Notes: generated by a model not told the origin, from the sequence alone. A stretch of DNA of 64,000 nt from an uncultured Gammaproteobacteria bacterium (GCA_963786705.1 CAWBAG010000027.1:1-64000); one strand, 5' to 3'; shown: positions 562-47,589, numbered from the stretch's first letter. Translations and numbers: made by a program.

Positions 562-2257
562 TCAGTTGCCTGCCAGGCTGATCAGGTAGTCGACGTCGGA
601 GGGCTGCAGGCCCTTGAGCAGCGACACGAAGATGTCCGAGAACGACCGCACGGGGCTCACGTACCACTGCTCGTCCACCTGGACCGTGACGATGCCCAGC
701 CCGACGATCTGCTGGAACTCGCGCTTGATGATGTCGACCATGGTCGGGTCCAGGTCCTGGCTGCCGCCGGCCTGGGCGATGAAGTCCTCGATGGTCGACT
801 GGTCGAGGGTCTGCGTCTGACCGTCAAGATCGACGGTCAACGAACCGGCAGCCGGGTCCCGGGTGATGGTCGCGGTCTGGCCCTGTGCACTGACGGTCAG
901 CGAGGCCAGTGAGACCTTCTTGCCGCCGGTCACGTCGCTGACCGTCCAGCTGGCTTTCTCGACGGTGAAGCCCAGGTCGCTGACGCCGGACGTCAGGTTC
1001 GAGGTGTCGATGTTGTCGACCAGCAATGTGCCGTAGTCGTGCAGCACGCCCATTTCGTCGGGGGCGGTGAGCGCGATGACGTCCTTGATGTTGCCTTCCG
1101 ATGCCTTCTTGATGAACGCGTCGACCGCGGCCTCCGGTGACGGCGAGCCGATGGCCGCGATCCGGTCGGCTGCGGTGGGGTTGGGCAGCCCGGCCTGATG
1201 GGCGGCGTTGTCGGCGATCGAATAGAACAGGCTGACGTACCACGCTCCGTCGCGCTGCACCGTGGCGATCCGGATCGGTCCGCCGTTGCTGGAAACGGCG
1301 TCGGCGATATTGAGGGTCTGGCTCTGCGGTTCGGCCTGGCTGATCTGGTCGGCGAACTTGCTCTTGATCTTGTCGCTCAGCGGGAGCTGATCGGGGTTGC
1401 TGACGATGGTGACCGTTCCGCCGGTCAGCTTGACGACCCGGAGGTTGTCGTTGATCGTCTCGTCGGTCGGGTCAACGGTAAGTCCCGAGACGGTGATCGA
1501 CGTGCCGGTCAGCGACGTGGTCGACGCCGGACGGCCCGAGCACGTCAAGTCGCTTCAGCTCGGAGAGCACGTCGGCGTTGAGGTCGGTGAACAGCGAGGC
1601 CTCGGCCGGGTCCAGCTGACCGGCGAGCCCGATCGGGTCGGAGTTGCTCAGCGACGTGAACAGCGCGTTCACCGCCGCCTGCGGGCTCTCCTGACCCGAC
1701 GCCGACTGGGTGTCCCGGATCGCGAAGAACCAGACGCCGGCGCCGGCCAACAATGCCACCACCACGGCGATGGCCGTGACGATCACCGGCGTGCGGTTTT
1801 TCGAGGCCGGCGCCGACGGTGGGGTCTGCGGTTGCCCGGGCTGCTGCCAACCCTGCGGGCCGGTGGGTTGCCCGGGCTGCTGCCAGCCCTGCGGACCGTG
1901 GGTTGCTCCGGGCTGCTGCCAGCCCTGCGGACCGGTGGGTTGCCCGGGCTGTTGCCAGCCCTGCGGGCCGGTGGGTTGTCCGGCTGCTGCCAACCCTGCG
2001 GACCGGTGCGGCTGCCGGGCTGCTGCCAACCCTGCGGACCGGTGGGCTGCCCCGGGCTGCTGCCAACCCTGCGGGCCGGTGGGCTGCCCCGGCTGCTGCC
2101 AACCCTGCGGACCGGTCGGCTGCCCCGGCTGCTGCCAACCCTGCGCACCGGTCGGCTGCCCCGGCTGCTGCCAACCCTGCGGACCAGTCGGCTGGTGCGG
2201 GCTGCTGCCAGCCAGGCGGTGCGGGTTGCCGTGGATCGCCCGGCCCGTAGGGCGCAC
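562..2257 (-). CDS. Pro/Gln-rich repeat protein with one TM anchor and a large extracytoplasmic domain; interrupted by a frameshift near 1500-1550
   Basis: ORFs 1472..2257 (PTGPQGWQQPGQ repeats plus TM VIVTAIAVVVALLAGAGVWFFAI) and 562..1548 continue each other in different frames. Confidence 0.5.
1822..2226. repeat. about 11 tandem copies of a 36-bp unit (ggctgctgccaaccctgcggaccggtgggctgcccc) encoding PTGPQGWQQPGQ
   Basis: Period-36 repetition is directly visible in the nucleotides; the units are slightly degenerate. Confidence 0.85.
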
Positions 2258-2462: not shown

Positions 2463-3048
2463 TCAGCCGTTTGGTTGTGGTCTCGGGCCCGAATTCCGCC
2501 AGACGCCGATGATCAGCCAGGCTCCGCCTACGGTGAGCAACATTCCGCCGGCAGACGTCACCGATGGCCCTATCGGGTCGACCTGAACGCCGATCGCGCC
2601 GCCACCACTGACGGCCAGCAACGCCAGCGACACCGCGGCCATGGCGACGCCGAGCAGCACACACAACCCGCCGGCGACCGCCCACCGGCGGAGCAGGGCG
2701 GCCACCACCGGCGTCGCGCACAACAGTCCGATGCAGCGGCCAACCCGCCACCAGTGAGCCCAACACTCCGTCGCCGGCGATTCCGAGTCGATCGATCATG
2801 CCGGTCACCGCGTAGCTGGAGCGCCGAACCTGCCCGGAGACGACCCACGGCAGGAATGAACCGATCAACGCAAGGACCAGGCCGGCGGCGGCGAACACCA
2901 GCGCGGCCACCCTGCCGGCATGGGTCGTGGGCCGGTTTTCGAGCGCAGGAATCACGGGACCAGTGTCGAGGATGATCACGCTGCGTAGAAATTCAGTGAC
3001 GTTCGTCATGGATGTCCGAATTGGGACTAATGGGTTTAGCGTGACCAC
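2463..3048 (-). CDS. small integral membrane protein (Rv1476-like position upstream of ripA), frameshifted near 2750
   Basis: The N-terminal part is in the ORF 2260..3048 frame up to ...SLVAGW. The C-terminal TM-rich part is in the ORF 2463..2723 frame. Confidence 0.5.
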
Positions 3049-3163
3049 TGGTCAATAGGGGGAACAAAGTGGCAAGGTTCTCCTGGCGTGTCGTGTTGAC
3101 ATCGTCACGGTCGGTGTTCGACCGGTCATCCGCGAGAACTCGATCGCGGGGGAGGAGCCTCAA

Positions 3164-5014
3164 GTGCCCGTCCGCACCCGTCCCCGCGGCATCGCGTCGA
3201 TGCTGGGCGGCGTCGTACTGGCCTGGATCGTGGTCGTCGGCACGGCGCTGCCCGCCGGTGCTGTGCCACCCCCGCCGGACAACCCGTCTGATGATCAGAT
3301 CCAGGCCGGACAGAGCCAGGTGGCGACCTCCGCCGCCGAGGTCGGCCGGCTGTCCGGGCTGGTCAGCAAGACCGAAGGCGACATCGAGCGCCTGAAGAAC
3401 GACATGGAGCTGAAGGCGGAGCTGGCGAACAAGGCCGCCGTCGATCTGCAGGTGGCGCAATCCGATGCCGCGGCCGCGTCCGCCGCCGCCACCCAGGCGC
3501 AGGCGGACGCCGACGCCGCAGGCAAGGCCATCGACGACGCCAAGGAAAAGGCTGCCGCGTTCGCCGCCGCGTCGTTCCGCCAGGGCTCGGTGCTCGGGTC
3601 GATGACGGCGCTGATGGACTCCGGCAGCGCCACCGAACTGCTGCAGCGGCGGGAATTGCTCGACCAGGTGTCCGGAACCCAGCTCAACGCGATCGCCAAC
3701 CTGGAGAGCAGCCGGAACCACAAGGCCAACCTCGACTCGGCCGCCCGCGCGGCACTCGATGCCGCCAACGCCGCGCAGGCGCGGGCGGACCAGGCCAAGA
3801 CGGATGCCGACAGCGCCCAGCAGCAGGCCGCCGACTCGCTGGCCGCGGGTCAGGACCAGCTCACCGCACTGGAAGGCCAGCTGACCCAGCAGCAGAACGA
3901 CTACCGGGCGGCACTGTCCAACGTCGCCGGTTTGCAGCAGCAGCGGGATCAGTACAACCAGTGGCTCGCGCAGAAGCAGGCCGAGGAAGAGGCGGCCCGC
4001 AAGGCCGCCGAGGAGGCCGCCCGGCAGGCTGCCGCGGCCGCCGCGGCGAGGCCGCCCGCCAGGCCGCCGAAGCGGCCGCCGCGCAGGCAGCGGCGCAGGC
4101 AGCGGCGCGAGCAGGCCGCCGCCGAGCAGGCCGCGGCGGAACGGGCCGCCGAGCAGGAAGCCGCCGCGGAGCGTGCGTCGGCCGCGCAGGAGGCCAGCAA
4201 CCAGGCCGCCCGGGCGGCTCAGCAAGCCGGCCGCCAGCTCCGAACCGTTCTACGACAGTTGCGACGCAGCGCGGGCCGCCGGTCGCGGCCCGATCTCCCA
4301 GGGCGAACCCGGCTACCGGTCGGCCCTCGACCCGAATGGCAACGGCGTCGCCTGCGAGGGCACGGTGGCCGTCGCCGCAGCCACCGCAAGCTCTGACAGC
4401 GTGTACTACGACAGCTGCGACGCGGCCAGGGCGGCCGGCGGGGGCCCATCGCGCGCGGAGAGCCCGGCTACCGGGCCGCCCTTGATCCCAACGGCAACGG
4501 CATCGCGTGCGAGGGCACGGCCGCGACCACCCCGGTCTCCACCGCCGTCCGGACGGTCGGCTCGTCCAGCTCGTCCAATTCCTCCCGCGGCCAGCAGGTG
4601 GTCGACGCGGCGATGGCCTACCTGGGCACGACCTACGCGTGGGGCGGCGGCGACTACTCCGGTCCGTCGCAGGGCATCCACGACGGCGGCGTGGCCGACC
4701 GGTACGGCGACTACAACAAGATCGGGTTCGACTGCTCGGGGCTGGCGCTGTACGCCTGGGCCCAGGTCGGGGTGTACCTGCCGCACTACTCCGGGTACCA
4801 GTACACGGGCCAGCCGCAGGTCTCCAGCAGCGACCTGCAGCCCGGTGACCTGGTGTTCTACGCCTACAACACGTCCGATCCGAGCACCATCCACCACGTG
4901 GCGATCTGGATCGGCAACGACCAGATCATCGAGGCGCCCAACTCCGGGTCCTCCGTGAAGATCTCCACGATGTACTGGAACGGGTTCATCGGCGCGTCAA
5001 GACCGGGCGGCTGA
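3164..5014 (+). CDS. ripA: RipA-like peptidoglycan endopeptidase with an N-terminal coiled coil, two Excalibur-like Ca-binding motifs and a C-terminal NlpC/P60 domain; two frame changes
   Basis: Coiled-coil Ala/Gln-rich region at 3164-4200. The motif YDSCDAARAAG...DPNGNG(V/I)ACEG occurs twice around 4230-4500 in another frame. The NlpC/P60 catalytic region is at 4598-5014 (FDCSGL...HHVAIW). There is a signal peptide at the N-terminus. Confidence 0.75.
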
Positions 5015-5032
5015 CCGGCGTCGGCATCGAGG

Positions 5033-5787
5033 GTGAGCGAGACACGGCCGGCCGCCGCGATCGTGCTGGCCGGCGGCCGCGGCCACCGATTGGGCGGCGT
5101 CGACAAGCCGGAGCTGGCCGACCGCGATGGGCGGACCCTGCTGGACCGGGTGCTTGCGGCTGTGTCCGGCGCACTCGTGGTCGTCGTCGGACCGCCGCAG
5201 GAGCCTGCCACCGGGGATCCTCGCCGTGCGTGAGCACCCGCCCGGTGGCGGCCCGGCGGCCGCGGTCGCCGCGGGATGCGCGGCCCTCGCGGAGTCACCG
5301 GTCGGCCGTCGGGCCGCATCGCCTGACGATGCCCTGGTCGCGGTGCTGGCTGCCGACCTGCCGAACGTCACCGCACGTACCGTCCGAGCGGTTGTGTGTG
5401 GCAGTGCACAGCGATCCCGAAGCCGGCCGGTGCCCTGCTGATCGACTCGTCCGGTCGGCGTCAGCTACCTTGTCGGCGTGTGGCGGCAGGGCGCGCTGCT
5501 CGCGGCGGTCCGGCAGCGTGAGAGCTGGTACGGCGCTTCAGCTGAAAGAGCTTCTCGCGCCGATCCCGGTCGTCGAGTCGCCGGCGCTCGGCGATGAGTT
5601 CGTCGACATCGACACACCGGATGACCTGCGCAGATGGCGGGAGAAGGTGACGCAGGGTAGCGAACCATCGGGCGACGTTCGACGATCAGTACACAGCGCT
5701 CGCCGGCCGGGCCTGGACAATGGTCGGCGTGACGCACCTGACGAGGAGGAGCCGGTGACCCCAGAGTCATTGAGCCCAGAAGGATAA
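5033..5787 (+). CDS. mobA: molybdenum cofactor guanylyltransferase MobA-like, split over three frames
   Basis: AAIVLAGGRGHRLGGVDKPEL is at the N-terminus, VLAADLPNVTA in the middle and LKELLAPIPVVE...DEFVDIDTPDDL at the C-terminus, each in a different frame. Confidence 0.6.
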
Positions 5788-5793
5788 CAGGGA

Positions 5794-6868
5794 TTGACCA
5801 GAGGATTGACCCGGCGTCAACCAGTGGGAGCGGGACGGCCGGCGGTCGGGCGGGCGCGCACGGGCCAACCGGTGCACACCCCGGCCGGCGACGCGGCCCT
5901 GCTGGAACGCACCGTCTTCGAGGTCAAGCGGGTGATCGTCGGGCAGGACCGGCTGGTCGAGCGGATGCTCGTCGGGTTGCTGGCCAAGGGACACCTGCTG
6001 ATCGAGGGCGTTCCCGGGGTGGCCAAGACGCTGGCCGTGGAGACGTTCGCCCGGGTGGTCGGCGGGACGTTCTCCCGGATCCAGTTCACCCCCGACCTGG
6101 TGCCCTCGGACCTGATCGGTACCCGGATCTACCGCGTCGGCCGCGAAGCAGTTCGACATCGAACTCGGCCCGGTGGTCGCCAACTTCGTGCTCACCGACG
6201 AGATCAACCGGGCGCCGGCCAAGGTGCAGTCGGCGCTGCTGGAGGTGATGGCCGAGCGGCATGTGTCGATCGGCGGCAAGACCTTCCCGATGCCCGACCC
6301 GTTCCTGGTGATGGCCACCCAGAACCCGATCGAGAACGAGGGCGTGTACCCGCTGCCGGAGGCGCAGCGCGACCGGTTCCTGTTCAAGCTGCTGGTCGGG
6401 TACCCCGAACCGGACGAGGAACGCGAGATCGTCTACCGGATGGGCGTTGTGCCGCCGGTGGCGCAGCAGGTGCTGCCGGTCGGCGAACTCGTCCGGCTGC
6501 AGAACGTCGCGTCCAACGTCTTCGTGCACCACGCCCTGGTCGACTACGTCGTCCGGTTGGTCTTCGCGACCAGGACACCCGCCGAGCACGGGCTCACCGA
6601 GGTCGCCGGGTGGCTGTCCTACGGCGCGTCCCCGCGCGCCTCGCTCGGCATCATCGCGGCGGCCCGCGCGCTGGCGCTGGTGCGCGGGCGTGATTTCGTG
6701 GTGCCGCAGGACGTCATCGACGTCTCCGCGGACGTGCTGCGCCACCGGTTGGTGCTGTCCTACGACGCCCTCGCCGACGGCATCCCCGTCGAGGTGATCC
6801 TGGGGCGTCTGCTGCAGGCCATTCCGCTGCCGCAGGTCAGCCCCTACACCCACCCCGGTGCAGCGTGA
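5794..6868 (+). CDS. moxR: MoxR-family AAA+ ATPase, frameshift near 6130-6145
   Basis: Walker A GVPGVAKT is present. After the frame change the sequence continues with GPVVANFVLTDEINRAPAKVQSALLEVMAERHVSIGG... Confidence 0.8.
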
Positions 6869-7850
6869 TGAGTGCTCCCAGCCGTGGCTGATGCTCGTGC
6901 AGCCCGGGGTGATCAGCACCTCGGATCCGGCCAGGCTGGACGCCGCGCTGGCCACCCTGGAACTCACCGTCCGGCGGCGGCTGGACGGCCTGTTGCAGGG
7001 CAACCACCTCGGCCTGGTGCCCGGTCCCGGCACCGAACCGGGGGATGCCAGGGTCTACAACCCGGGTGACGACGTGCGCCGGATGGACTGGTCGGTGACG
7101 GCCAGGACCACCGAGCCGCACATCCGGCAGACGGTCGCCGACCGTGAGCTGGAGACCTGGCTGGTCGCCGACCTCTCGGCGTCGCTCGACTTCGGCACCA
7201 CCGGTTGCGAGAAGCGGGATCTGGTGGTGGCGGCGGCCGCCGCCGTCGGTCACCTGACCAGGGGCGGCGGCAACCGGATCGGCGCGATCGTGGCGACCGG
7301 GGCGGGTATCACCCGGATCCCGGCGCGAGGTGGACGCCCCGCGCTGCAGCACCTGCTGCGCGCGCTGGCCGCGACCCCGCGCACCGGGCCCGGCGACCGC
7401 GGCGATCTCGCCGTGGCGCTGGAACAGCTGCGCCGGCCGCCGCGACGCCGCGGGTTGGCCGTCGTGATGTCCGACTTCATCGGCCCGCTGAACTGGGAAC
7501 GGCCGCTGCGGGCACTGTCCGGGCGGCACGACCTGCTCGCCGTCGAGGTGCTCGATCCCCGGGATCTGGAACTGCCGGACGTCGGCCTGGTGACCCTGGT
7601 CGACCCGGAAACCGGTCGCACCAAAGAGGTTTCCACCACCGCCCAGCTGCGGTCGGCGTTCGCACAAGCCGCCGCGGAGCACCGGGCGCAGGTCGACGTC
7701 GCGCTGCGCCGGGCCGGCGCCGCCCACCTGGTGCTGCGCACCGACCGGGACTGGATCGCCGACGTGCTGCGGTTCGTGATGGGTCGCAAGCGCGGCTGGA
7801 CCGGCGCGGCCACCAGCCCGCCGGTGGCCCGTGCGGGGGAGGCCTGGTGA
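6858..7850 (+). CDS. DUF58 protein (MoxR partner)
   Basis: A 330-aa intact ORF overlaps the moxR stop, which is the typical MoxR–DUF58–VWA arrangement. Confidence 0.75.
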   Translation: MQRDECSQPWLMLVQPGVISTSDPARLDAALATLELTVRRRLDGLLQGNHLGLVPGPGTEPGDARVYNPGDDVRRMDWSVTARTTEPHIRQTVADRELETWLVADLSASLDFGTTGCEKRDLVVAAAAAVGHLTRGGGNRIGAIVATGAGITRIPARGGRPALQHLLRALAATPRTGPGDRGDLAVALEQLRRPPRRRGLAVVMSDFIGPLNWERPLRALSGRHDLLAVEVLDPRDLELPDVGLVTLVDPETGRTKEVSTTAQLRSAFAQAAAEHRAQVDVALRRAGAAHLVLRTDRDWIADVLRFVMGRKRGWTGAATSPPVARAGEAW

Positions 7851-9755: not shown

Positions 9756-10559
9756 ATGACCGATCAGCTCGGCACCGGACTGCTGTCCGGCAAGAACCTG
9801 CTCATCACCGGCATCATCACCGAGGCGTCGATCGCGTTCCACACGGCTCGGCTGGCCCAGGAGCAGGGCGCCAACGTGGTGCTGACCGGGTACGGGCGAC
9901 TCTCGCTCGTCGAGCGCATCGCCCAGCGGTTGCCGCAGCCCGCGCCGGTGATCGAACTCGACGTCACCGACAAGGCGCAGTTGGACTCGCTCGCCGACCG
10001 GACCCGTGAACACGTGGACGGCCTGGACGGGGTACTGCATTCGATCGGGTTCGCGCCGGCCGCCGCTCTCGGCGGTAGCTTCCTGGACTGCCCGTGGGAG
10101 GACGTGGCGACGACGGTGCACACCTCGGCGTACTCGCTCAAGGCCCTCGCGGTGGCCTGCCTGCCGTTGATGTCCGCCGGCGGATCAATCGTCGGCCTCG
10201 ACTTCGATGCCCGCCAGGCGTGGCCCGCGTACAACTGGATGGGTGTGGCCAAGGCCGCGCTCGAATCCGTGACCCGTTACCTGGCAAGGGATCTCGGTCC
10301 GCAGGGCATCCGGGTGAATCTGGTGTGTGCCGGTCCGATCAAGACGATGGCGGCGAAGTCGATCCCCGGTTTCATCGATCTGGAGAACGGTTGGACCGGG
10401 CGCGCACCGCTGGGCTGGGACACCTCCGACCCCACCCCGGTGGCCAGGGCGGCAGTGGCACTGCTGTCCGACCTGTTCCCGGCCACCAGTGGCTCGATGG
10501 TGATGGTCGACGGCGGCTTCCACGCGCTGGGGTTCGGTGTCTCCGAGGTTGCTGACTGA
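9756..10559 (+). CDS. inhA: NADH-dependent enoyl-ACP reductase InhA
   Basis: The 267-aa product (LLSGKNLLITGIITEASIAFHTARLAQEQGA...) matches the InhA family hallmark sequence. Confidence 0.9.
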   Translation: MTDQLGTGLLSGKNLLITGIITEASIAFHTARLAQEQGANVVLTGYGRLSLVERIAQRLPQPAPVIELDVTDKAQLDSLADRTREHVDGLDGVLHSIGFAPAAALGGSFLDCPWEDVATTVHTSAYSLKALAVACLPLMSAGGSIVGLDFDARQAWPAYNWMGVAKAALESVTRYLARDLGPQGIRVNLVCAGPIKTMAAKSIPGFIDLENGWTGRAPLGWDTSDPTPVARAAVALLSDLFPATSGSMVMVDGGFHALGFGVSEVAD

Positions 10560-10633
10560 CCGAGCAGCATTCACACTCGCGTGCTGCTTTTCGCAGTTTC
10601 AGGCCGCGCTCGCTGCCTTGATATTTGTCCCGT

Positions 10634-11459
10634 TCAGCCCGAACGCCTGCGGCTGACCTGGCGGTCGGGCCGCGGGACTCGGGTCCGGACCCTTGCGGCG
10701 CCCTCGCTGAGCGCCGCCACCGCGGAGGCCACCGCCGCGCGCCTGGCCTCGCCCACCGCGGCCGCCAGCGGGCGGAGCGCGTCGTCGACCACGGCGAGTT
10801 CATGGGAGGTGACAGCGGCGGTGTCCTGGCCGTTGGCAACGCTGAGCAGGGCGTGCAACGAGATCGAGGTGGCCAGCAGGGCCGACGCGGCCGCCGGGAT
10901 GCCCGGGCGGGCAGGTGACCGCCTCGTCCAGCATCATCTGGCGGACCCGCTCCCTGGCGTGCGGGGAACTGCGAGCAACGTCCAGCGCCGTGATCGACCT
11001 GGTTGCCCTGCCGACCTCGGCGTCCAGCAGGTCGTGCGCCTCGGCCAGGCTCGGCGCGGGATGCTCGACGTCGCAGCGGAACGCCCGCCACTGCCCGTCG
11101 CTGGGCACCAGACCGATATCGAGGGCCGGCAACCTGACGACCGCACCGGCATCCAGTGCGGCGACCGCGATGTCGCCGCCGACCGGCAGCCCGCGCATGT
11201 CTCCCGGTCGCGGCAGCAGCAGCTCTGCCCGGCCGCCGCGACGCAGCAGCGGCAGCAAAGCCGACGACCCGGCGCTCGGCCAACCTGGCCCGGGAAGCCC
11301 GGTGGCGTCGGCGATCTCGGTGGAAGCGGCGCGCACACCGGCGCGGTGCCCGGCGTCATCGATGGCCGCCAGCACTTCGTCAGCGCTGGCCCCGCCCTGC
11401 CACGCCGCAGCCCACAGGGCCACGGTGGTGGCCGCGCGGAGGGCGCCGATTCCGGACAT
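10634..11459 (-). CDS. conserved hypothetical protein (Rv1486c-like position), frameshift near 10860-10920
   Basis: ORFs 10800..11459 and 10634..10858 continue each other in different frames. Confidence 0.45.
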
Positions 11460-11639
11460 GAGGGCTACCGTACGTCACGCTCGGACAGCTGACGCGGCTG
11501 TGCACAATCCGGGCAGCATACCCGAGCCGGAAATTCCGGTAGCATCCGCGCGCCGATCGACCGGATCGTACGGTCCGGATCGACACGCCCGAGACGAGTT
11601 CGGCCGTCCGGACGCACGCCCCGCGTAGCGTCGCGGATC

Positions 11640-12504
11640 GTGCCTGAACCCGCACCGTTCGATCTGCCCGCAGCCCGCCGCCCTGAGTTCGCCTCGTATC
11701 CGCGCGACGTGCTCGCTACACCGCGGCGTGCCCAACGCCCTGCCCGAGTGATCCCCGCCACCATCGACACAGTGGCCGAGGATCCGCTGTCCGGCTTCTG
11801 CGGTGCGGTGGTGGCGTGCACCTCCACCGCGGTGACCCTGGAGGATCGCAAGGGTCGTCGACGGGTCTTCCCGCTGGCTCCCGGAGCGTTCCTGGTGGAC
11901 GGTGCGCCCGCCACCCTGGTGCGCCCGCCGAGCGCACCCGCCGCGCCACAACGGTCGGCGTCCGGATCAAGGGCGGTCGCGGGTCTGCGCGCGAGAACCG
12001 CCAGGGCGACACGGATCTGGGTGGAAGGCATCCACGACGCCGCGCTGGTGGAACGCGTCTGGGGGCACGACCTGCGCGTGGAGGGCATCGTCGTGGAGCC
12101 GATCGACGGCCTGGACAACCTGCCGTCGGCGGTCGCCGAGTTCCGTCCGGGTGACGGGCGCCGGCTCGGCGTGCTGGTCGACCACCTGGTGCCCGGTTCG
12201 AAGGAAAGTCGCATCGCCGACGGCGTGCTGGCCGACCTACGGCCGCTGCGTGCTGATCACCGGCCATCCGTACGTCGACATCTGGCAGGCGGTGCGGCCG
12301 GCCGCGGTCGGCATCGCCGCCTGGCCCTCCGTGCCGATCGGCACCGACTGGAAGACGGGGGTGTGCGCGGCGCTCGGCGTGCCGGACACCCGGACCATGT
12401 GGAACAGGGTGAACGGTGCGGTCAGCAGTTACCGGGACCTGGACACCCCGCTGATCACCGCGATGGAGCGATTGATCGACTTCGTCACCGAGACCCACAG
12501 CTGA
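11640..12504 (+). CDS. conserved actinobacterial hypothetical protein (DUF3097-like C-terminus GHPYVDIWQAVRP), frameshift near 12240
   Basis: ORF 11640..12542 and ORF 11902..12504 join at ...ADLRPLR | CVLITGHPYVDIW... Confidence 0.5.
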
Positions 12505-19953: not shown

Positions 19954-20343
19954 ATGATCGTCATCGACGCCTCGGCGCTGCTGGACTTGATTCTCTTGCG
20001 TCCCAACGCTTCCCGTGTTGCGGACGCCATGAGGGGACAGTCCGTCGCCGCTCCCGAGCTGATCGTGGTGGAAACCTCTTCTGCGCTCGCGCGACTGGAG
20101 CGAGCGGGAGACCTTCATACCCACGATGCGGACATCGCGATCCGCGATGTGGGGGAGATGCCGATCTCGTTGGTTGGCCATTCTCCCCTGCACACCCGTG
20201 CGTGGGCGATGCGCGGGTCCCTTCGGGTGGCCGACGCCTTCTACGTCGCCTGCGCGGAACTGCTCTCCGCGCCGCTGCTCACCAGTGACGGGCGGCTGGC
20301 CCGCGCGCCGCTGTCCGGGGTGGCCGTCACGCTCGTCCGGTGA
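19954..20343 (+). CDS. vapC: PIN-domain toxin VapC
   Basis: The product begins MIVIDASALLDLIL and carries the C-terminal ...TSDGRLARAP. Confidence 0.8.
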   Translation: MIVIDASALLDLILLRPNASRVADAMRGQSVAAPELIVVETSSALARLERAGDLHTHDADIAIRDVGEMPISLVGHSPLHTRAWAMRGSLRVADAFYVACAELLSAPLLTSDGRLARAPLSGVAVTLVR

Positions 20344-20395
20344 GGTCGGTGGGGAAGGGCTCACACCAGGCACCGGGGGTAGCGTGGCGAGCACC

Positions 20396-20942
20396 ATGAC
20401 AGCACGCGCCCGGGCGATCGTGGCCGGAGCCGCGGTGACAGCCTCTCCTGCTCGCCGTACCCGCATCGGCGGACACCGGCGATGCGACGTCGCACGCCCA
20501 CGCGCCGGCGGTCGTCCTGATGGCCGCTCGCGGCGAGGTGATCGGCGGGGTCGACATCGACGCCGCCGTGGCCGACCTGGGCGACGACCATGTCACGGTG
20601 ATCGGCGACTCCGGTGCGACAACCGGCCTGGCCGAGGCGGTCTCGGAATCACGTGCGGACGGGCTGGGGTTGTCGGTGGTCTCGGTGGCGAGTTCGCTGA
20701 CCACCCAGCAGGCGATGGACATCGCCGGCGCCGTCCAGGTCCAGTCCGGCGGCACGGTGCTCGTGCTCGCTCCTGACGCGATCGGTTCGCGCAGCAACAC
20801 GGTGTCCACAGCGGCGGACGAGGACGCCAGGGGCGCGGCCGCGGAGGCCGCCGACCCACCGGCCGCGGTTCGTGCCTACACCGACGTGGCGACCGAGAAA
20901 CCGTTTGCATGGCATGGGCTGCAGAAGCCACCGCCGACCTGA
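20396..20942 (+). CDS. secreted hypothetical protein, frameshift inside the signal peptide (about 20445)
   Basis: MTARARAIVAGAAVTA is in one frame and LLLAVPASADTGDATSHA... in another. There is an AxA cleavage site. Confidence 0.45.
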
Positions 20943-21574
20943 TGCAGCCGAAGCAGTATCCGGCAGCCCAGGTCTTCACGTTTCTGTTCCTGATGCTCGG
21001 CCCGTTCAAGATCATCGGTCCCTTCTTGCAGATCGTGAAGGGAGCGGATGCGACGTTTGCGCGGCAGATTGCCGTGCGGTCGACCCTCTTTGCGACCCTC
21101 GTTCTACTAATCGCGGCAGTCCTCGGCCAGAGCGTCCTGACCAGTTACGGCATCCCATTACCCATTCTCGCTCTCTCCGGCGGGATCATTCTGTTGCTCG
21201 TCGCGCTGGGGCACGTCCTTCGTGAGTTCGCACCACCGAAGCCGCCTCGCGAGACAACTTCGGAGCCGGCCTCGGCAGCAACCTTGAACATGGCTTTGTC
21301 GCCGCTTGCCTTCCCGACGATTGTCACGCCGTACGGTATCGCTGCGCTCATCGTATTCCTTGCACTCAGTCCAGACCTGCAAGCTCGACTGGTCATCGGC
21401 GCCATCCTGTTGGCGATCATGCTGTTGAACCTGATCGTGATGCTGCTGGCCCAGCGCATGCGGCCGTGGATGGGCGCGTCGCTGCAGGTCCTGGGCGCAG
21501 TTCTCAGCGTCATTCAGGTGGCACTGGGACTGCGAATCATCCTCCTCTCGGTCAAGGCGATGGGGATGTCGTGA
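20942..21574 (+). CDS. marC: MarC-family (UPF0056) membrane protein
   Basis: The 210-aa product has six TM segments. GC is roughly 10 points lower than the flanks. Confidence 0.7.
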   Translation: MQPKQYPAAQVFTFLFLMLGPFKIIGPFLQIVKGADATFARQIAVRSTLFATLVLLIAAVLGQSVLTSYGIPLPILALSGGIILLLVALGHVLREFAPPKPPRETTSEPASAATLNMALSPLAFPTIVTPYGIAALIVFLALSPDLQARLVIGAILLAIMLLNLIVMLLAQRMRPWMGASLQVLGAVLSVIQVALGLRIILLSVKAMGMS

Positions 21575-24878: not shown

Positions 24879-25720
24879 TCAACGCGAGTTCCGCCAGGAT
24901 ACTGCGATGACGACAGCCACCATGCCGAGGGCGAGAATTCCCGCGATCGCGTCGGCCACGATCGAATAGTCGAAACGATAGCGACCGCTGGCGGGATCGT
25001 AGATCGTGCAGAACAGTTTCACCGACCGGGCGAGCCCGGCGAGCGTGCCGCGCTCGATCTCCTGGCCGCGGACGAGGCGCTTCAGCGGCTCGACGAGACT
25101 TGGCGGGTTGAAGTCCTGCCCGTACACCTGCAGTGTCACGCGCCCGGTGCCGTCGATGACGGTGGTCTGCGTGATGTGGTCGAATCCCTTGGGCGACGGC
25201 CGGTAGGTGAAGCCGACGTCGCGCGCCAGTCGCTCCAGCGTCGCGGTGTCCGTGCTGGCGAAATACCAACCCGGCAATGCCGGCGCCACGCTCCTGCGCA
25301 TACAGCCGCATCCGTGCCGGCGTGTCGTTGGGCGTGTCGAATCCGACCGTCAGGACGGTGAAGCTGTCCGGTCCGAGCGCTCGCCGCGCCACCTTGGCGA
25401 CGTCGCGCAGGTGCACGGTCAGGCCGGAACAGACCTGGTAGCAACTCGTGTAGACGAGGCTCAGCACGACCGGCTTGCCGCGGAGGCTCGACAGCCGGAA
25501 CGCCCGGCCGCGTTGATCGACAAACTGGTAGTCATCGAGTTGCCGGTTGATCGCGGCCTGGCTGGTCGCCAGCGCGGTGGTCGTCGTCAGGAGCCGGCGT
25601 CTGCGCAAGGGCACCTGCGGCCATCGCCCAGGCGCAACCCGAGCAGGAGTCCGCCGTGCAGCGTTGACCTGCGATGGGGCCTGCGCATGGCTCAGTAGAC
25701 GACCAGGCGGCCTGACAGGG
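24879..25720 (-). CDS. sco: SCO1/SenC copper chaperone (copy 1), frameshift near 25260; the start is uncertain
   Basis: The CxxxC region is VVLSLVYTSCYQVCS and there is a C-terminal TM. The two halves lie in ORF 24835..26073 and ORF 24879..25301. An extra T is apparent in GGGTTGGTAT. Confidence 0.7.
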
Positions 25721-25753
25721 CTCCGTCGACGATGGCCCCGACCAGCAGCAGGC

Positions 25754-26640
25754 TCAACTGCAGCAGCGAGGCCAGGAAGTTGCGGATTGCGTTCTGCCGT
25801 GTCGGTGCGCGGACGAGGAGGACGCTTCGGTAGACGAAATACGCGCCGCCGGCTGCGGCACAGGCGAGATAGGAGTTCCCTGCGCCCCAGGCCGACCGGC
25901 AACAGCGCGAGCAACACGAGCAGCACGGTGTGCCCGAGGATCACGCGAGCCGCGACGCGATCGCCGATACACCACCGGCAGCATCGGCACGCCGGCGTCG
26001 GCGTAGTCCTGCCGGTAATACATCGCGAGGCTCCAGAAGTGCGGCGGGGTCCAGAGAAACAGGATGACCGCAAACGTCCATGCGGCCGGGCCCAGGCCTG
26101 GATTCACCGCCGCAGCACCGGCCAGCACGGCGAAACTGCCGGCGAGGCCGCCGACGACGATGTTCAGCCACGTCCGCCGCTTGAGCCAGAGCGTGTAGAC
26201 GACGCCGTAGGTGAACGCGCCGAGGAACACGAAGGCGGCTGCCAGCCAGTTCGTCGCCAGGCCGGCCGAGACGACCGCAACGGCCAGCAGCAAGCCGATC
26301 ACCGCGAACCATGGCGCAGCCGCCGTCGAGCTGCCCGGTGACGAACGGACGGCCGCGAGTGCGCGACATGCGCGCGTCGAGGTCGCGTTCGGCCAGGTGA
26401 TTGAGCGCACCGGCGCTCGCAGCGGCCAGGAAGACCGCGATCGCAAGAACCAGCAACTGCGCACGGCGGCAACCCGGGGCCCTGGGCCATCGCGACGCCC
26501 GCGATGCCGGCGAACATGATCTCGAGGGCGATGCGCGGCTTGAAGACCTCGACCGTGCTCCGCCAGGAAGCCCGATTCGCTGCGAGGTCCGCATCCTGCG
26601 CGACTGCTTGGTGCACGTTCGCTCCTACCGCAGCGGCCAG
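25754..26640 (-). CDS. ctaB: protoheme IX farnesyltransferase (heme O synthase) CtaB/CyoE, at least 3 frame changes
   Basis: The N-terminus is RSTVEVFKPRIALEIMFAGIAGVAMA. The middle is ALNHLAERDLDARMSRTRGRPFVTGQL. The C-terminus is FVFLGAFTYGVVYTLWLKRRT...LWTPPHFWSLAMYYRQDYADAGVPMLPVV. All three parts are in different frames. Confidence 0.7.
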
Positions 26641-28328
26641 ACCTCGGCAAGGTACTTCCAGTTCACGAAGTAGTACAGGACGAACGACACGAAGAACACG
26701 CCGACCAGCACGATCGTGCCGGGGATCTTGAGCGTTCCCTCGTTGCCGTAGCGCGCCACGGCCGCGGCCGATGCCGCGCCGGACACCGGACCGAGCTGCA
26801 CCACTTCGCTGTCGCCGATCCTGCGGCCGAAGAAGACCGAGCAGACGACGACGAGAATGTACATCGCGCCGCCGATCGCGGCCATGATCGCGGACATGCC
26901 GTTGAGCGCCAGCATCAGGAACGCCGCGGGCGAGAACTGGAACTGGCGTGAGCGCGTCCGCGAACGTGATGTCCCAGTGCCTGCGGGGCACGCCGAGCGT
27001 GCCGGCGCCCATCATGAACAGCGAGATGCCGGCAACGCCCAGCCCGAAAATGTAGGGCTGCAGCTGGGCGACCTTCCTGAACATGACCTCGCGACGGAAG
27101 ATCAGCGGTACGAGGAGATACGTGATCGCCATGAACGCGAGCGTCGTGCCGGCGACCACGGTCGCGTGGAAATGCCCCGGCACGTACAGCGTGTTGTGCA
27201 TGATCAGGTTGATCTGCTCGGTGCCCATCACGACGCCGGAGATGCCGCCGAGGAAGCCGAACATGACCAGCGACAGGAACATGCCGGCAAATGCCGGGTT
27301 GCCCCAGGGCGCCTTGCGCAGCCACTCGAACAGGCCCTTGTTGTAGCCCTTGGCGCGCTGCGCCGCCTCGATGGCGCCCGGCACCGTCATGCCGTGGATC
27401 ATGCTGCCGAGCACGGCGAGGTACATCGCGTAGCTGGTGTTGAAGATCTTCCAGCTCGAGCTCACGCCGGGCTCGACCAGCATGTGGTGCGCGCTCGCGA
27501 GCTGCAGGAACAGGATGTACATGAGGAACGCCATGCGGCTGACTTTCTCGGAGATCGGCTTGGCGCCGAGCACCATGGCGCCGATCGCGTACCACACGGC
27601 GACGTGCGCGGAGACGTTGATCTGCTGCGAGGAGTGGCCCATGCCCCACCAGACCAGCTTGTACATCAGCGGGTCGATGCCGCTGATGATGCCGAGCGAC
27701 CAGAGGAAGGTCGGGATGAGGATGATCGCGCCGCAGGCCAGCGTGAACACGGCGATGATCGCCGCCGTGATGGCGCCGAAGGTGACCAGCGGCACCGATC
27801 CCTCGTAGGTCTTCTCGTCCTTGGCAACGACCAGCGTGCCGAAGAAGACCGCGCAGCCGATCAGGGCACCCACGGCGAACAGGACGAGGCCGAGGTAGAA
27901 GTGCGGCGCCGCCAGCAACGGCGCGTAGGAGGTGAACATGACCGAGGAGTTGCCCTGGAGCACCGCGACGTTGGTCATCAGCGCGCCGACCAGCATCAGC
28001 CAGAACTGGACCCATCCCCAGCGTGGCGCGGCAAGCCGTGAATTGAGCAGTACCGCGGAGGCGAAATACAGCACCGCCATCTCGAAGAAGATGATCCAGA
28101 CGAGCAGCACGTCGATGCCGTGTGCGGTCAGCGCGCAGGTAGAACCAGTCGGCCGGCAGCAGGTGCACGGCAGGCCAGCGTGTCAGCGCGACCGACAGGC
28201 CGAACAGGCCACCGACGAGCAGGAACACGACGGCGGCGACGGCGTTCGACCTTGATGAGGTTTTCCGCCGAACGGTCGATCCGCAGGCCGGTCGTCGGGC
28301 AGGTGCGAAAGATGGTTGCAACTGTCAT
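26625..28328 (-). CDS. cbaA: heme-copper oxidase subunit I, B-family (ba3-like) CbaA, several frame changes
   Basis: Most of the protein is in ORF 26299..28110 (GHFHATVVAG, HHMLVEP). The C-terminal TM helices are in ORF 26625..26915. The N-terminus is in other frames. Confidence 0.7.
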
Positions 28329-42879: not shown

Positions 42880-44090
42880 ATGCGTATCCACCGCTGGATG
42901 CCGCTGCGCGATTTCCTGAAGCTCGAGTCCGCGAGCGGCATCGTGCTCGTGCGTGGCCGGCGCGCTCGCCCTGGTGGCGGCCAATACGCCGTTGGCGGAC
43001 CGGTACGAGTCGCTGCTGCGACGCCCTTCAGCGTGCAGGTCGGCGACGTTCACGCTCGACAAGCCGCTGCTCGATCTGGGTCAACGACCTGCTGATGGCG
43101 ATCTTCTTCCTGCTGGTCGGGCTCGAGATCAAGCGCGAGGTCGTGACCGGCGAGCTGTCGGACGCCTCGAAGGTCGCGCTGCCCGCCGTCGCGGCGCTCG
43201 GCGGCATGGTCGTGCCGGCCGCGATCTACGCGGGGATCAACTGGCACGATCCGGTCGGGCATCGCGCGGCTGGGCGATTCCCTCGGCCACCGACATCGCC
43301 TTCGCGCTCGGCGTGCTGTCGCTGTTCGGCGAGCGCGTGCCGGTCGGCCTGAAGGTGTTCCTGATGACGCTCGCGGTGCTCGACGACCTCGGCGCCATCG
43401 TGATCATCGCGATCTTCTACACGAGCGACCTGTCGGTGCCGGCGCTGGTGCTCGCCGGCCTCGCGGTGGCGGCGCTGCTCGCGTTGAACCGGCTCGGCGT
43501 GCTGCGCATTGCGCCCTACATGCTGGTCGGCACGGTGCTGTGGCTCTGCGTGCTCAAGTCCGGCGTGCACGCCACGCTGGCCGGCGTCGTCACCGCGCTG
43601 TTCGTGCCGGCGCGCGACCCGCGCGATCCCGGCCACCCGCCGCTCACGACGGCTCGAGCACTCGCTGCATCCGTGGGTGGCGTTCGGCATCCTGCCGGTG
43701 TTCGCGTTCTCGAACGCCGGCGTCGACCTCGGCGGGCTGGGCATCGCGCGACCTGCTGCAGCCGATCCCGCTCGGCATCATGCTCGGCCTCTTCGTCGGC
43801 AAGCAGGTGGGCGTGTTCGGCATTCGCCTGGGCTCGCCGTCAGCGCCGGACTCGCGCAGCTGCCCGTCGGGCGTCGACTTCAGGCAGGTCTACGGCGCGG
43901 CCGTGCTCTGCGGCATCGGATTCACGATGAGCCTGTTCATCGGCATGCTCGCGTTCGAGAACGCGGGCGCGGGCGAGGTGGTCGTGACCGACCGGCTCGG
44001 CATCCTGGTCGGCTCGCTGCTGTCCGCGGCGCTCGGCTACGTCGTGCTGAATTTCGTGCTGCCGCGACGCGCAGCAGCAACCCTTGAGCT
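42880..44090 (+). CDS. nhaA: Na+/H+ antiporter NhaA, at least 6 frame changes in about 1.2 kb (possible pseudogene)
   Basis: NhaA segments occur in alternating frames. They include [81 protein letters not shown] and [14 protein letters not shown]. Confidence 0.6.
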
Positions 44091-44131
44091 GCGTCGAGCC
44101 GGTCGTGCGAGACGGGCTCTGGCCGGCAGCC

Positions 44132-45061
44132 TCAGCGCGCGAACAGGTAGTCGAGCAGGATGCCCGCGAACACCGCGAGCCCGAACAGGTTGTTGTCAGG
44201 AACGCGCGGAAGCAGCGGTCCGGGTCGCGCTCGCGGATCAGCCACTGCTGGTGGACCGCGAGCGCGCCGCGACGCACGAGCCCGCACCAGTACCAGCGGC
44301 CGAGGCCGCACGTCCCGGCGACCAGCGCGAGGCCCGCGAGCGCCGCCAGCCTGCAGCACCGCGACGATGCGCGCGGTCCGCACGCCCGAACAGGATCGCG
44401 GACGACCGGATGCCGATGACGAGGTCGTCCTCGCGGTCGACCATCGCGTAGATCGTGTCGTACGCGGTGGTCCAGAGCACGCACCGCGACGGAACAGCAC
44501 CCAGGCCTGACGGCGGCACGATCGCCGGTCTGCGCCGCGAACGCCATCGGCACGGACCAGCCGAACGCCAGCGCCGAGGTAGGCCTGCGGCAGTGCGAAG
44601 AAGCGCTTCAGGAACGGATAGGTCACGGCCAGCACGCCGCCGATCAGCGCGAGCACCTGCGTCGGCCGGTTGAGCGGGATCAGCAGCGCGAGCGCGATCA
44701 GGCCGAGCACCGCGAACAGCGCGAGCGCCTCGGCGGGCGAGACCGCCTGCCTGGCGAGCGGCCGGTCCGCGGTGCGCCGGACGTGCGGGTCGAACTCGCG
44801 ATCGGCGAAGTCGTTGATCACGCAGCCCGCCGAGCGCATGACGAACGTGCCCATGACGAAGATCACGAAAATGCGCTCGTCCGGCTGCCCGTCCGCCGCG
44901 ATCCACAGCGCCCACAGCGCCGGCCACAGCAGCAGCCAGATGCCGATCGGGCGGTCGAGGCGCATCAGTCGCGCGTACTCGCGCAGCCGCACGCGCACGA
45001 CCGCGAGTCCGCGGGGCTCGGCGCGCTCGGCTTCTTGTCGAGGTCGCGTGACGTTGCTCAT
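44132..45061 (-). CDS. ubiA: 4-hydroxybenzoate polyprenyltransferase UbiA, about 3-4 frame changes
   Basis: [19 protein letters not shown] is present. [20 protein letters not shown] is in another frame. The C-terminus is CFRAF...[18 protein letters not shown]. Confidence 0.65.
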
Positions 45062-47171: not shown

Positions 47172-47181
47172 TCATGCGGCG

Positions 47182-47589
47182 TCAGGCGACGTCGGGCCGG
47201 GCGCCGCTCAGAGCGACCAGGATGCCGTCCACTTCGACGCTGGCTCCGCGCGGCAGCGCTGCCACGCCGACCGCCGCACGCGCCGGATAGGGCGGCGCGA
47301 AATACTCCGCCATGACGTGTTCACGAGCGGAAGTTGCGCGAGGTCCGTCAGGTACACGTTGAGCTTGACCGCCGCGCGCGAGGTCGCCGCCGGCGGCCTG
47401 CGCGACGGCGCGCAGGTTGTCGAACACGCGGCGCACCTGCGCTTCGACGTCGCCCTGCACGAGCTCGCCCGTCGCCGGGTCGAGCGGAATCTGGCCCGAC
47501 AGGTAGACGGTGGCGCCGGCCTTGATCGCCTGGGAATAGGTGCCGATGGCGTTCGGCGCGTGGCCGGTCGAGACGGGAGTGAAAGGCAC
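47182..47589 (-). CDS. ridA: RidA/YjgF-family reactive intermediate deaminase, two closely spaced frame changes
   Basis: The GTG start has an AGGAG Shine-Dalgarno. APNAIGTYSQAIKAG and the C-terminus VMAEYFAPPYPARAAVGVAALPRGASVEVD are present. The central block is out of frame for about 60 nt. Confidence 0.65.
   Translation of the reverse strand: MPFTPVSTGHAPNAIGTYSQAIKAGATVYLSGQIPLDPATGELVQGDVEAQVRRVFDNLRAVAQAAGGDLARGGQAQRVPDGPRATSAREHVMAEYFAPPYPARAAVGVAALPRGASVEVDGILVALSGARPDVA

What the first reader, a model, noticed from the sequence alone, without database searches (positions are those of the whole stretch)
3164..5014. RipA-like endopeptidase carrying two Excalibur-type calcium-binding modules
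Two copies of FYDSCDAARAAG...DPNGNG(V/I)ACEG lie between the coiled-coil domain and the NlpC/P60 domain. This architecture is not the canonical M. tuberculosis RipA layout. It suggests Ca-dependent regulation of a septal hydrolase. The first module is out of frame relative to the rest, offset by two compensating indels.
Basis: partly seen in the sequence, partly recalled or inferred. Interest (0 to 1): 0.55.

Follow-up and report, generated by a model that had tools for sequence, protein, structure and literature searches.

The report
RipA-type hydrolase with Excalibur modules
The window does encode a Nakamurella-type cell-separation enzyme (RipA family) with two small Excalibur calcium-binding-type modules in its linker. 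However, this layout is already catalogued in over 100 database proteins, and the reading-frame breaks are most likely assembly errors in a noisy, chimeric contig.

Summary
Window 3164-5014 (+) encodes a signal peptide, a RipA-type coiled coil, two Excalibur modules (PF05901, 80.5 bits against a cutoff of 22) and an NlpC/P60 domain.

The gene is broken by four indels, not two: -1 at ~4047, +4 at ~4105, +1 at 4229 and -1 at ~4438. An in-frame TGA at 4394-4396 truncates the ORF to 410 aa.

The architecture is not new:
- It is the usual RipA layout in Nakamurella. Among the 120 best homologues, 67 have two modules, 33 have one and 20 have none.
- It occurs in N. multipartita DSM 44233, and NCBI already names such proteins "excalibur calcium-binding domain-containing protein".

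The indels are almost certainly assembly errors:
- The window has 17 private indels in 5 kb, where two relatives about 95% identical have 0-1.
- Most are 1-nt insertions, and neighbouring conserved genes are hit too.
- At least 36 frame switches occur across the 64 kb.
- The out-of-frame stretch shows 6-7 synonymous and 0 non-synonymous changes in the Excalibur frame.
- The contig looks chimeric: Nakamurella up to ~20.5 kb, a Steroidobacteraceae-like gammaproteobacterium after that.

Calcium regulation is untested. The loops are a conserved DxNxNG variant of the canonical DxDxDG. Interest is low.

The parts
3164..3262 (+). GTG start, positively charged N-terminus, hydrophobic segment and ...LPAGA|VPPPP: a probable Sec signal peptide or membrane anchor (frame 2).
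   Evidence: Read from the translation. Conserved in homologues. Low pLDDT in the model. The signal-peptide assignment is inferred from sequence only.
3290..4047 (+). RipA-type N-terminal coiled-coil domain (frame 2). It contains Glu86 and Asn89, which align with the autoinhibitory Glu69 and Asn72 of C. glutamicum Cg1735.
   Evidence: phmmer alignment to 8AUC and to Mtb RipA N-terminal domain entries 6EWY/9HMX. Long helices 43-145 and 156-359 in the AF2 model. Foldseek hits to 8AUC, 6EWY and 9HMX. Role of Glu69/Asn72 from PMC9897464.
4047..4048 (+). Site of a 1-nt deletion relative to L001/L002 (GCGGC-GAGG versus GCGGCAGAGG). Shifts frame 2 to frame 1.
   Evidence: DNA alignment to L001 and L002. 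Frame map.
4048..4107 (+). Twenty codons of the Ala/Gln/Glu-rich linker that make sense only in frame 1 (EAARQAAEAAAAQAAAQAAA). In the assembled frame they read RPPARPPKRPPRRQRRRQRR.
4105..4108 (+). 4-nt insertion relative to L001/L002. Returns the reading to frame 2.
4109..4228 (+). Last part of the low-complexity helical linker, in frame 2.
   Evidence: pLDDT below 50 for residues 311-364. Overlapping short tandem repeats across 3978-4235. GC content of 4041-4440 is 78.5%.
4229..4229 (+). 1-nt insertion private to the window (AAGCCGGCCGCC versus AAGCC-GCAGCC). Shifts frame 2 to frame 0.
   Evidence: Absent from all four relatives in the multiple alignment. Also.
4248..4361 (+). Excalibur module 1 (frame 0, out of frame with the rest of the gene). 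Cys...Cys pair, loop DPNGNGVACE.
   Evidence: Pfam PF05901, 58.3 bits on the raw ORF. Coordinates. Folded bead with pLDDT ~75 in the model.
4394..4396 (+). TGA in frame 2. It ends the ORF as assembled (3164-4396, 410 aa, = P0072).
   Evidence: P0072 is 100% identical to the query over its aligned stretch and has the same length as window ORF 3164-4396 (410 aa).
4404..4516 (+). Excalibur module 2, split by a 1-nt deletion at ~4438-4448. The first 15 codons are in frame 0 and the remaining 23 in frame 2. Loop DPNGNGIACE.
   Evidence: Matches the CbpL Excalibur structure 5J8T with E 4.6e-7.
4586..5011 (+). NlpC/P60 catalytic domain (frame 2). Cys codon at 4733-4735 (GFDCSGL), His within 4892-4897 (IHHVAIW), Glu at 4931-4933 (IIEAPNSG). 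Stop codon at 5012-5014.
   Evidence: Pfam PF00877. Alignment to Cg1735 (catalytic C513) and to Mtb RipA. Foldseek entries for the RipA C383, H432 and E444 mutants; rmsd 1.7 A to Mtb RipA. Invariant Cys and His and near-invariant Glu in 82 homologues.
5033..7850 (+). Downstream genes in conserved order: a MobA-like NTP_transf_3 gene (5033-~5650), a MoxR AAA+ ATPase (5838-6868) and a DUF58-like gene (6858-7850). They also carry window-private frameshifts.
   Evidence: Gene calls and Pfam on the intact relative L002. Window-private indels: 1 nt at 5197, 5317, 5384, 5423, 5467, 5542, 5643, 6146 and 6894, and 2 nt at 5302. DUF58 is assigned from the translation (my reading), not by an HMM run.

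Best explanation
The locus is the RipA-family septal peptidoglycan D,L-endopeptidase gene of a Nakamurella-like actinobacterium.

The real protein is about 616-620 aa. It is exported and consists of four parts:
- a RipA-type coiled coil;
- a long Ala/Gln/Glu-rich helical linker;
- two disulfide-closed Excalibur modules strung like beads on flexible linkers;
- a C-terminal NlpC/P60 domain with a Cys-His-Glu triad.

By analogy with C. glutamicum Cg1735, the coiled coil docks on the catalytic cleft and keeps the enzyme autoinhibited until a septal partner releases it. The contact residues Glu and Asn are conserved. This step is inferred.

The Excalibur pair sits in the part of RipA that varies most between lineages. 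It is an accessory insertion present in 0, 1 or 2 copies among Nakamurella relatives. Its most likely role is a metal-dependent folding or spacing element that sets the length and stiffness of the tether between the inhibitor and the catalytic domain. This too is inferred and untested.

The four frame-breaking indels and the premature stop are not biology. They are consensus errors of an error-prone, probably long-read, metagenome assembly. In the organism the gene is most likely intact.
For: Domain identity:
- Pfam assigns Excalibur (80.5 bits) and NlpC/P60 (76 bits).
- The best solved relative is Cg1735 (8AUC), E 5.8e-56 over residues 31-608. Query Glu86/Asn89 align to Glu69/Asn72, and Cys524 aligns to C513 (residue roles from PMC9897464).
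- Mtb RipA catalytic domain scores E ~1e-26, against only 5e-7 for RipC.
- The structure search gives the same ranking, with rmsd 1.7 A to Mtb RipA.
- The AF2 model shows two separate folded modules between disordered linkers.
- Gene order ripA-like / NTP_transf_3 / MoxR is conserved in relatives.

The architecture is common:
- 100 of the 120 best homologues carry Excalibur plus NlpC/P60, including N. multipartita DSM 44233.

The indels are artefacts:
- Intact relatives at 95-96% nucleotide identity differ at exactly four non-3n indels.
- The window has 17 private indels in 5 kb, 15 of them 1-2 nt, against 0 and 1 for L002 and L003.
- Another 8 private 1-nt insertions lie in 7.6-15 kb.
- At least 36 same-strand frame switches without a stop occur across 64 kb. 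RecG is split into about 9 pieces whose stitched translation is continuous.
- In the out-of-frame stretch there are 6-7 synonymous and 0 non-synonymous codon differences when it is read in the Excalibur frame.
- The same gene is also split across frames in three other 'MFD' MAGs: L015, L017 and L029. That naming series is described as Nanopore-only with one Medaka round in PMC12313526.
- The contig is chimeric.
Against: - No reads are available, so the indels cannot be checked directly.
- The sequencing platform of the source is unknown.
- About half of the private insertions are not next to a homopolymer. That is not the classic Nanopore error signature.
- The two pairs compensate each other exactly, which random errors would do only about one time in three to four per pair.
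- A very recent real frameshift would also leave the synonymous/non-synonymous pattern intact.
- Autoinhibition, septal function and any metal dependence are inferred from homologues. None was measured for a Nakamurella protein.
Confidence: 0.85

Rival explanations
1. The gene is a genuine pseudogene. This strain has lost its RipA-type hydrolase through real frameshift mutations and makes only a 410-aa coiled-coil fragment.
For: As assembled, the ORF stops at 4396. The 410-aa product is what the public record encodes.
Against: - The same kind of single-base indel hits the neighbouring MobA-like, MoxR and DUF58 genes, as well as RecG, CtaB and others.
- The indels are insertion-biased, whereas bacterial pseudogene decay is deletion-biased (established knowledge).
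- There are no non-synonymous changes in the out-of-frame stretch.
- Two relatives about 95% identical have 0-1 private indels in the same 5 kb.
Confidence: 0.08
2. The compensating frameshift pairs are real and tolerated, or are decoded by programmed frameshifting. This would give a variant protein with an Arg/Pro-rich linker segment.
For: - Both pairs restore the frame.
- The first pair lies in a low-complexity, low-confidence linker. A 20-residue substitution there might be tolerated, and it introduces no stop.
Against: - The second pair encloses a TGA in the assembled frame and would delete the first Excalibur module.
- I did not search for a slippery or stimulatory signal, and none is evident at the shift sites shown.
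- The frame-1 and frame-0 readings are the ones conserved in homologues: 97% protein identity after stitching.
- The background rate of such indels in this window is high.
Confidence: 0.03
3. The second Excalibur copy is an assembly duplication.
For: Two adjacent similar units lie in a repeat-rich, 78% GC stretch.
Against: - The copies are only 79.6% identical at the DNA level.
- Both copies are present in 67 of 120 homologues from independent assemblies. These include the 6.06-Mb N. multipartita DSM 44233 genome and short-read contigs L001-L005.
Confidence: 0.01

Closest known systems
Corynebacterium glutamicum RipA homologue Cg1735 (PDB 8AUC/8AUD; Gaday et al. 2022, PMC9897464)
   Same: - Full-length similarity, E 5.8e-56 over residues 31-608.
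- Same order of parts: signal peptide, coiled coil, long variable linker, NlpC/P60.
- The autoinhibitory Glu69/Asn72 and the catalytic Cys513 align to Glu86/Asn89/Cys524.
   Different: The Cg1735 linker has no Excalibur module; it is a disordered or second coiled-coil region. Overall identity is only about 31% in the structural alignment.
Mycobacterium tuberculosis RipA (Rv1477; PDB 3NE0, 2XIV, 4Q4G, 6EWY, 9HMX)
   Same: - Catalytic domain E ~1e-26, rmsd 1.7 A.
- The N-terminal domain is detectable (E 5e-4).
- A MoxR ATPase gene lies nearby, as with moxR1 next to ripA-ripB in M. tuberculosis. The Mtb gene order is from my own knowledge. The ripA/ripB synteny is stated in PMC9897464.
   Different: Mtb RipA is 472 aa with a shorter linker and no Excalibur. 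There is no ripB-like second gene here; a MobA-like gene follows instead.
Nakamurella RipA-like proteins, e.g. N. multipartita DSM 44233 'NLP/P60 protein' (P0043, 625 aa) and HYN72379.1 'excalibur calcium-binding domain-containing protein' (P0010)
   Same: - Same architecture, module number and DxNxNG loops.
- 73-97% protein identity to the stitched sequence.
   Different: Those genes are intact. The window copy carries four frame-breaking indels.
Excalibur domain of pneumococcal CbpL (PDB 5J8T; PMC5137146)
   Same: - 38-43-residue module with two Cys forming a disulfide, a short helix after the first Cys, and a C-terminal EF-hand-like loop ending in CE.
- E 4.6e-7 to module 2.
   Different: - The CbpL loop is DRDHDGVACE, in which Asp58, Asp60, Asp62 and Glu67 bind Ca.
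- Here the loop is DPNGNG(V/I)ACE, so two of the three Asp ligands are Asn.
- In CbpL the domain is N-terminal on a choline-binding adhesin, not inside a hydrolase linker.
FtsEX-controlled coiled-coil hydrolases (Mtb RipC, PDB 8IDC; pneumococcal PcsB, PDB 4CGK)
   Same: The same general logic: a coiled coil plus a cysteine peptidase domain, held inactive until a septal partner acts.
   Different: Much weaker similarity: RipC scores E 5e-7 by sequence, in the catalytic domain only, and PcsB E 1.3e-2 by fold. The locus groups with RipA, not RipC.

Membership tests
RipA family of Mycobacteriales septal D,L-endopeptidases | C-terminal NlpC/P60 domain with a Cys-His-Glu catalytic triad | tested here: met
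   PF00877 at 76-82 bits. Cys524 aligns to Cg1735 C513. Cys and His are invariant and Glu near-invariant in 82 homologues. rmsd 1.7 A to Mtb RipA.
RipA family of Mycobacteriales septal D,L-endopeptidases | Conserved N-terminal coiled-coil domain homologous to RipA CC1, with the residues that plug the active site | tested here: met
   8AUC alignment from residue 31. Glu86/Asn89 align to Glu69/Asn72. 6EWY/9HMX score E 5e-4. Helices 43-145 and 156-359 in the model.
RipA family of Mycobacteriales septal D,L-endopeptidases | Coiled coil and catalytic domain joined by a linker that varies in length and sequence | tested here: met
   The linker spans about residues 290-476 and here contains the two Excalibur modules. 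PMC9897464 describes the linker as highly variable.
RipA family of Mycobacteriales septal D,L-endopeptidases | Uninterrupted reading frame | tested here: not met
   Four non-3n indels and a TGA at 4394-4396 in this assembly. Judged to be an assembly artefact.
RipA family of Mycobacteriales septal D,L-endopeptidases | Autoinhibition relieved by SteB/Cg1604; requirement for daughter-cell separation | not testable with these tools
   Needs biochemistry or genetics. No SteB-like gene was looked for outside the window.
Excalibur domain (Pfam PF05901) | Score above the Pfam gathering threshold | tested here: met
   80.5 bits with two stretches, against a cutoff of 22. Module 1 alone in the raw ORF scores 58.3 bits.
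Excalibur domain (Pfam PF05901) | Two conserved Cys (disulfide) | tested here: met
   Each module has DSC...AC(E). The disulfide is shown for CbpL in PMC5137146. Its formation here is inferred.
Excalibur domain (Pfam PF05901) | Literal DxDxDGxxCE calcium loop | tested here: not met
   Both loops are DPNGNGxACE. 165 of 167 loops in the family are DxNxNG. Among 146 other Excalibur-bearing representatives, 229 of 266 loops (86%) are DxDxDG and 13 (5%) are DxNxNG. Asn can ligate Ca in EF-hand loops (established knowledge), so this does not exclude binding.
Excalibur domain (Pfam PF05901) | Ca2+ binding and Ca-dependent folding | not testable with these tools
   Shown only for CbpL (PMC5137146). 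AF2 models no ions.

The most novel reading that the evidence does not exclude
The tandem Excalibur pair with its lineage-fixed DxNxNG loops may be a metal-dependent folding switch built into the tether of Nakamurella RipA. The metal could be Ca2+ at lower affinity, or another ion. Binding would shorten or stiffen the tether and so modulate how tightly the coiled coil autoinhibits the NlpC/P60 domain. That would link cell separation to envelope or environmental cation levels.
Probability: 0.15. Interest if true: 0.5.

Novelty: new member of a known kind. Interest (0 to 1): 0.18.

Why it matters
For genome scanning, the lesson is practical. The eye-catching "compensating frameshifts" come from a noisy, chimeric metagenome contig and should not be read as biology.

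For cell-wall biology there is a modest lead. Nakamurella RipA enzymes carry 0, 1 or 2 Excalibur modules in the linker that joins the autoinhibitory coiled coil to the catalytic domain, and these modules have a conserved Asn-for-Asp variant of the Ca loop. The full-text search found no paper holding Excalibur together with NlpC and P60. The lead could be tested with the cultured type strain N. multipartita. It would be an incremental addition to the known RipA regulation story (SteB, MarP, FtsEX-independent control).

Tried and rejected
- **Source contig look-up.** The look-up of encoding contigs for P0072 found nothing. The source record, its platform and its reads remain unknown.
- **Six-frame Pfam scan.** I replaced it with a GC3 hidden-Markov frame segmentation and stitched translations.
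- **tblastn of P0001 against the window.** It reported one frame-2 alignment and hid the shifts. Frame mapping had to be done by exact peptide search.
- **Literature.** "Excalibur" plus "RipA" returned only irrelevant hits such as RIPA buffer and instrument names. "Excalibur" plus "NlpC" plus "P60" returned nothing.
- **RNA genes.** The window has no tRNA genes and no Rfam matches, so no RNA element explains the frame changes.
- **Homopolymer-error model.** This does not fit well. Only about half of the private insertions are next to a same-base neighbour, so I make no claim about the sequencing platform.
- **Assembly duplication of the modules.** Rejected.
- **RipC/FtsEX-type assignment.** Rejected in favour of RipA.

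Full report
**1. What is in the sequence**

The window has 68.7% GC.

ORF listing and three-frame translation of 3164-5014 show one protein-like reading that hops between frames. Exact peptide mapping gives this frame map:

| Coordinates | Frame | Content |
|---|---|---|
| 3164-4048 | 2 | signal peptide and coiled coil |
| 4048-4107 | 1 | EAARQAAEAAAAQAAAQAAA |
| 4109-4228 | 2 | rest of the Ala/Gln/Glu-rich linker |
| 4230-4448 | 0 | Excalibur module 1 (4248-4361), inter-module linker, first 15 codons of module 2 |
| 4448-5014 | 2 | rest of module 2 (to 4516) and NlpC/P60 |

- Frame 2 has a TGA at 4394-4396, so the ORF as assembled is 410 aa.
- That exact product, P0072, is in NCBI/ENA on a 302,370-bp contig. 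The frame breaks are therefore in the public record and were not introduced later.

**2. Domain tests**

- The stitched protein scores 80.5 bits for Excalibur PF05901 (E 1.1e-22, two stretches, gathering cutoff 22).
- It scores 76.3 bits for NlpC/P60.
- The raw frame-0 ORF alone gives 58.3 bits for Excalibur.

**3. Where the indels are**

The intact close relatives L001 (ENA contig) and L002 (JGI contig) are 95.8% and 95.2% identical in DNA. Alignment to them places four indels whose length is not a multiple of three:

| Position | Change |
|---|---|
| ~4047 | -1 |
| ~4105 | +4 |
| 4229 | +1 |
| ~4438 | -1 |

After stitching, the protein is 96-97% identical to P0001-P0003 over its whole length.

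**4. Are the indels real?**

The evidence points strongly to assembly error.

(a) *Excess of private indels.*
- In a five-way alignment of 2720-7712, the window has 17 private indels, 15 of them 1-2 nt.
- The two relatives about 95% identical, L002 and L003, have 0 and 1.
- The private indels of the more distant L004 and L005 (about 87-89% nucleotide identity) are mostly multiples of three or lie between genes.
- Nine window-private indels fall in the ~600-bp MobA-like gene. Others fall in MoxR (6146) and the DUF58-like gene (6894).
- Another eight private 1-nt insertions lie in 7.6-15 kb.

(b) *Frame switches across the whole window.*
- A GC3-based six-state segmentation gives 109 segments.
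- 36 same-strand switches have no stop codon of the upstream frame nearby.
- They cluster at 4-6.2 kb, 25.2-27 kb and 43-48.3 kb.
- Stitched translations across these switches are continuous and recognisable. For example, RecG is cut into about nine pieces, and a CtaB-like and a UbiA-like protein are also cut.

(c) *Selection pattern.* In the out-of-frame stretch 4230-4438, the differences from L001, L002 and L003 are 6-7 synonymous and 0 non-synonymous codons when read in the Excalibur frame. That frame has therefore been under purifying selection.

(d) *Direction of the bias.* The indels are strongly biased towards insertions, the opposite of the deletion bias of real bacterial pseudogenes (established knowledge).

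(e) *Other MAGs show the same problem.*
- The same gene is also split across frames in three other MAGs of the "MFD" series: L015, L017 and L029.
- That series was assembled from Nanopore reads alone with one round of Medaka polishing (PMC12313526).
- I cannot show that the window belongs to that project.

*Caveats.* No reads are available. About half of the insertions are not next to a homopolymer. A very recent real mutation cannot be strictly excluded.

**5. The two modules are not an assembly duplication**

- They are 79.6% identical in DNA.
- Among the 120 best homologues, 67 have two modules, 33 have one and 20 have none.
- The two-module form is in the 6.06-Mb genome of N. multipartita DSM 44233 (P0043) and in many independent contigs.

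**6. What the protein is**

*Solved relatives by sequence:*
- The best is C. glutamicum RipA Cg1735 (8AUC), E 5.8e-56, aligned from residue 31 to 608.
- The M. tuberculosis RipA catalytic domain follows at E ~1e-26, and its N-terminal domain at E 5e-4.
- RipC of the FtsEX complex scores only 5e-7.

*Conserved functional residues:*
- In the 8AUC alignment, query Glu86 and Asn89 fall on Cg1735 Glu69 and Asn72. These are the coiled-coil residues that hydrogen-bond around the catalytic Cys513 in the autoinhibited crystal form (PMC9897464).
- Query Cys524 falls on Cys513.

*AlphaFold2 model of the intact relative P0001 with 82 homologues:*
- long helices at 43-145 and 156-359;
- two small folded modules at 365-403 and 417-455 (pLDDT about 75-83), separated by linkers with pLDDT below 50;
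- a confident NlpC/P60 domain at 477-620;
- pTM of 0.35, so the relative placement of the domains is not predicted.

*Structure search:* Foldseek ranks Cg1735 first and superposes the catalytic domain on Mtb RipA at 1.7 A.

*Gene order:* The downstream order NTP_transf_3 then MoxR is conserved in relatives. This recalls ripA-ripB-moxR1 in M. tuberculosis (my own knowledge for moxR1).

**7. How it most likely works**

*Shown here:* family membership, conserved catalytic and autoinhibitory residues, and the position of the modules in the variable linker.

*Inferred:* the enzyme is exported and held inactive by its coiled coil, as in Cg1735, until a septal activator releases it. It then cleaves peptidoglycan stem peptides to separate daughter cells.

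*What is known about Excalibur:* For CbpL, the domain is unfolded without Ca2+ and folds on binding. The ligands are Asp58, Asp60, Asp62, Glu67 and the Val64 backbone, and the two Cys form a disulfide (PMC5137146).

*What differs here:*
- The loops are DPNGNG(V/I)ACE. The DxNxNG form is found in 165 of 167 loops of this family.
- Among 146 other Excalibur-bearing cluster representatives, only 13 of 266 loops (5%) are DxNxNG and 229 (86%) are DxDxDG.
- Asn can ligate Ca2+ in EF-hand loops (established knowledge). Binding therefore remains plausible, perhaps with lower affinity, but it is untested.

*Best guess:* the modules act as metal-dependent folding or spacing elements of the tether. "Ca-dependent regulation of a septal hydrolase" is a hypothesis, not a finding.

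**8. Novelty**

- The architecture is catalogued. Pfam hits to PF05901 and PF00877 are precomputed for about 100 of the listed proteins. NCBI names some of them "excalibur calcium-binding domain-containing protein", and JGI names one "peptidoglycan DL-endopeptidase RipA".
- The full-text search found no paper holding Excalibur together with NlpC and P60.
- The window copy is another, damaged, member of this set.
- Interest is low. The only residual point of interest is the conserved DxNxNG variant and the variable copy number.

**9. Seen in passing**

The contig appears chimeric.
- Up to about 20.5 kb it is syntenic with Nakamurella MAGs.
- Beyond that the genes are gammaproteobacterial in type: heme-copper oxidase, CtaB, SCO1, RidA, RecG and UbiA.
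- A protein encoded at 23.2-24.8 kb is 100% identical to P0121, which is on a contig of the same 302,370-bp length. Its named relatives are Steroidobacteraceae and Gammaproteobacteria.
- Tetranucleotide composition switches between 20 and 21 kb, and GC content drops.

Noticed in passing
window ~20000-21000 (junction); 1-20 kb versus 21-64 kb: The contig looks chimeric. The first ~20 kb is syntenic with Nakamurella MAGs. The rest carries gammaproteobacterial-type genes (heme-copper oxidase, CtaB, SCO1, hemerythrin, RidA, RecG, UbiA). A cytochrome b/4Fe-4S fusion there has named relatives in Steroidobacteraceae. Both parts are on a public contig of 302,370 bp. GC content and tetranucleotide composition switch at ~20.5 kb.
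   Followed up: partly
whole window; clusters at 4000-6200, 25200-27000, 43000-48300: Frameshift-like frame switches are very dense: at least 36 without a nearby stop, mostly single-base insertions. They break many conserved genes, for example RecG into about 9 pieces. The cytochrome b fusion is 521 aa here against ~704 aa in relatives.
   Followed up: yes
window 1830-2210 (- strand coding): A 36-nt tandem repeat of 10.6 copies at 89% match. It encodes a Pro/Gln/Gly-rich 12-residue repeat (…PQGWQQPGQPTG…) in a protein upstream of the ripA-like gene, with a hydrophobic segment further on. Function unknown.
   Followed up: no
homologues P0001-P0120: Excalibur copy number in the RipA-like family varies: 2 copies in 67 proteins, 1 in 33 and 0 in 20. 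The calcium loop is DxNxNG in 165 of 167 modules, a minority form (5%) among other Excalibur proteins.
   Followed up: partly
loci L015, L017, L029 (MFD MAGs), positions ~10001-11850: The orthologous RipA-like gene is also split across reading frames in three other 'MFD' MAGs. Truncated products with Excalibur only are listed in the protein database (P0083, 440 aa, is on the L015 contig; P0079 and P0084 are similar).
   Followed up: partly
window 19954-20343 (+): A PIN-domain (VapC-like) toxin ORF lies just before the compositional junction, with a MarC-like membrane protein ORF at 20909-21574 just after it. Both are assigned from the translation only.
   Followed up: no
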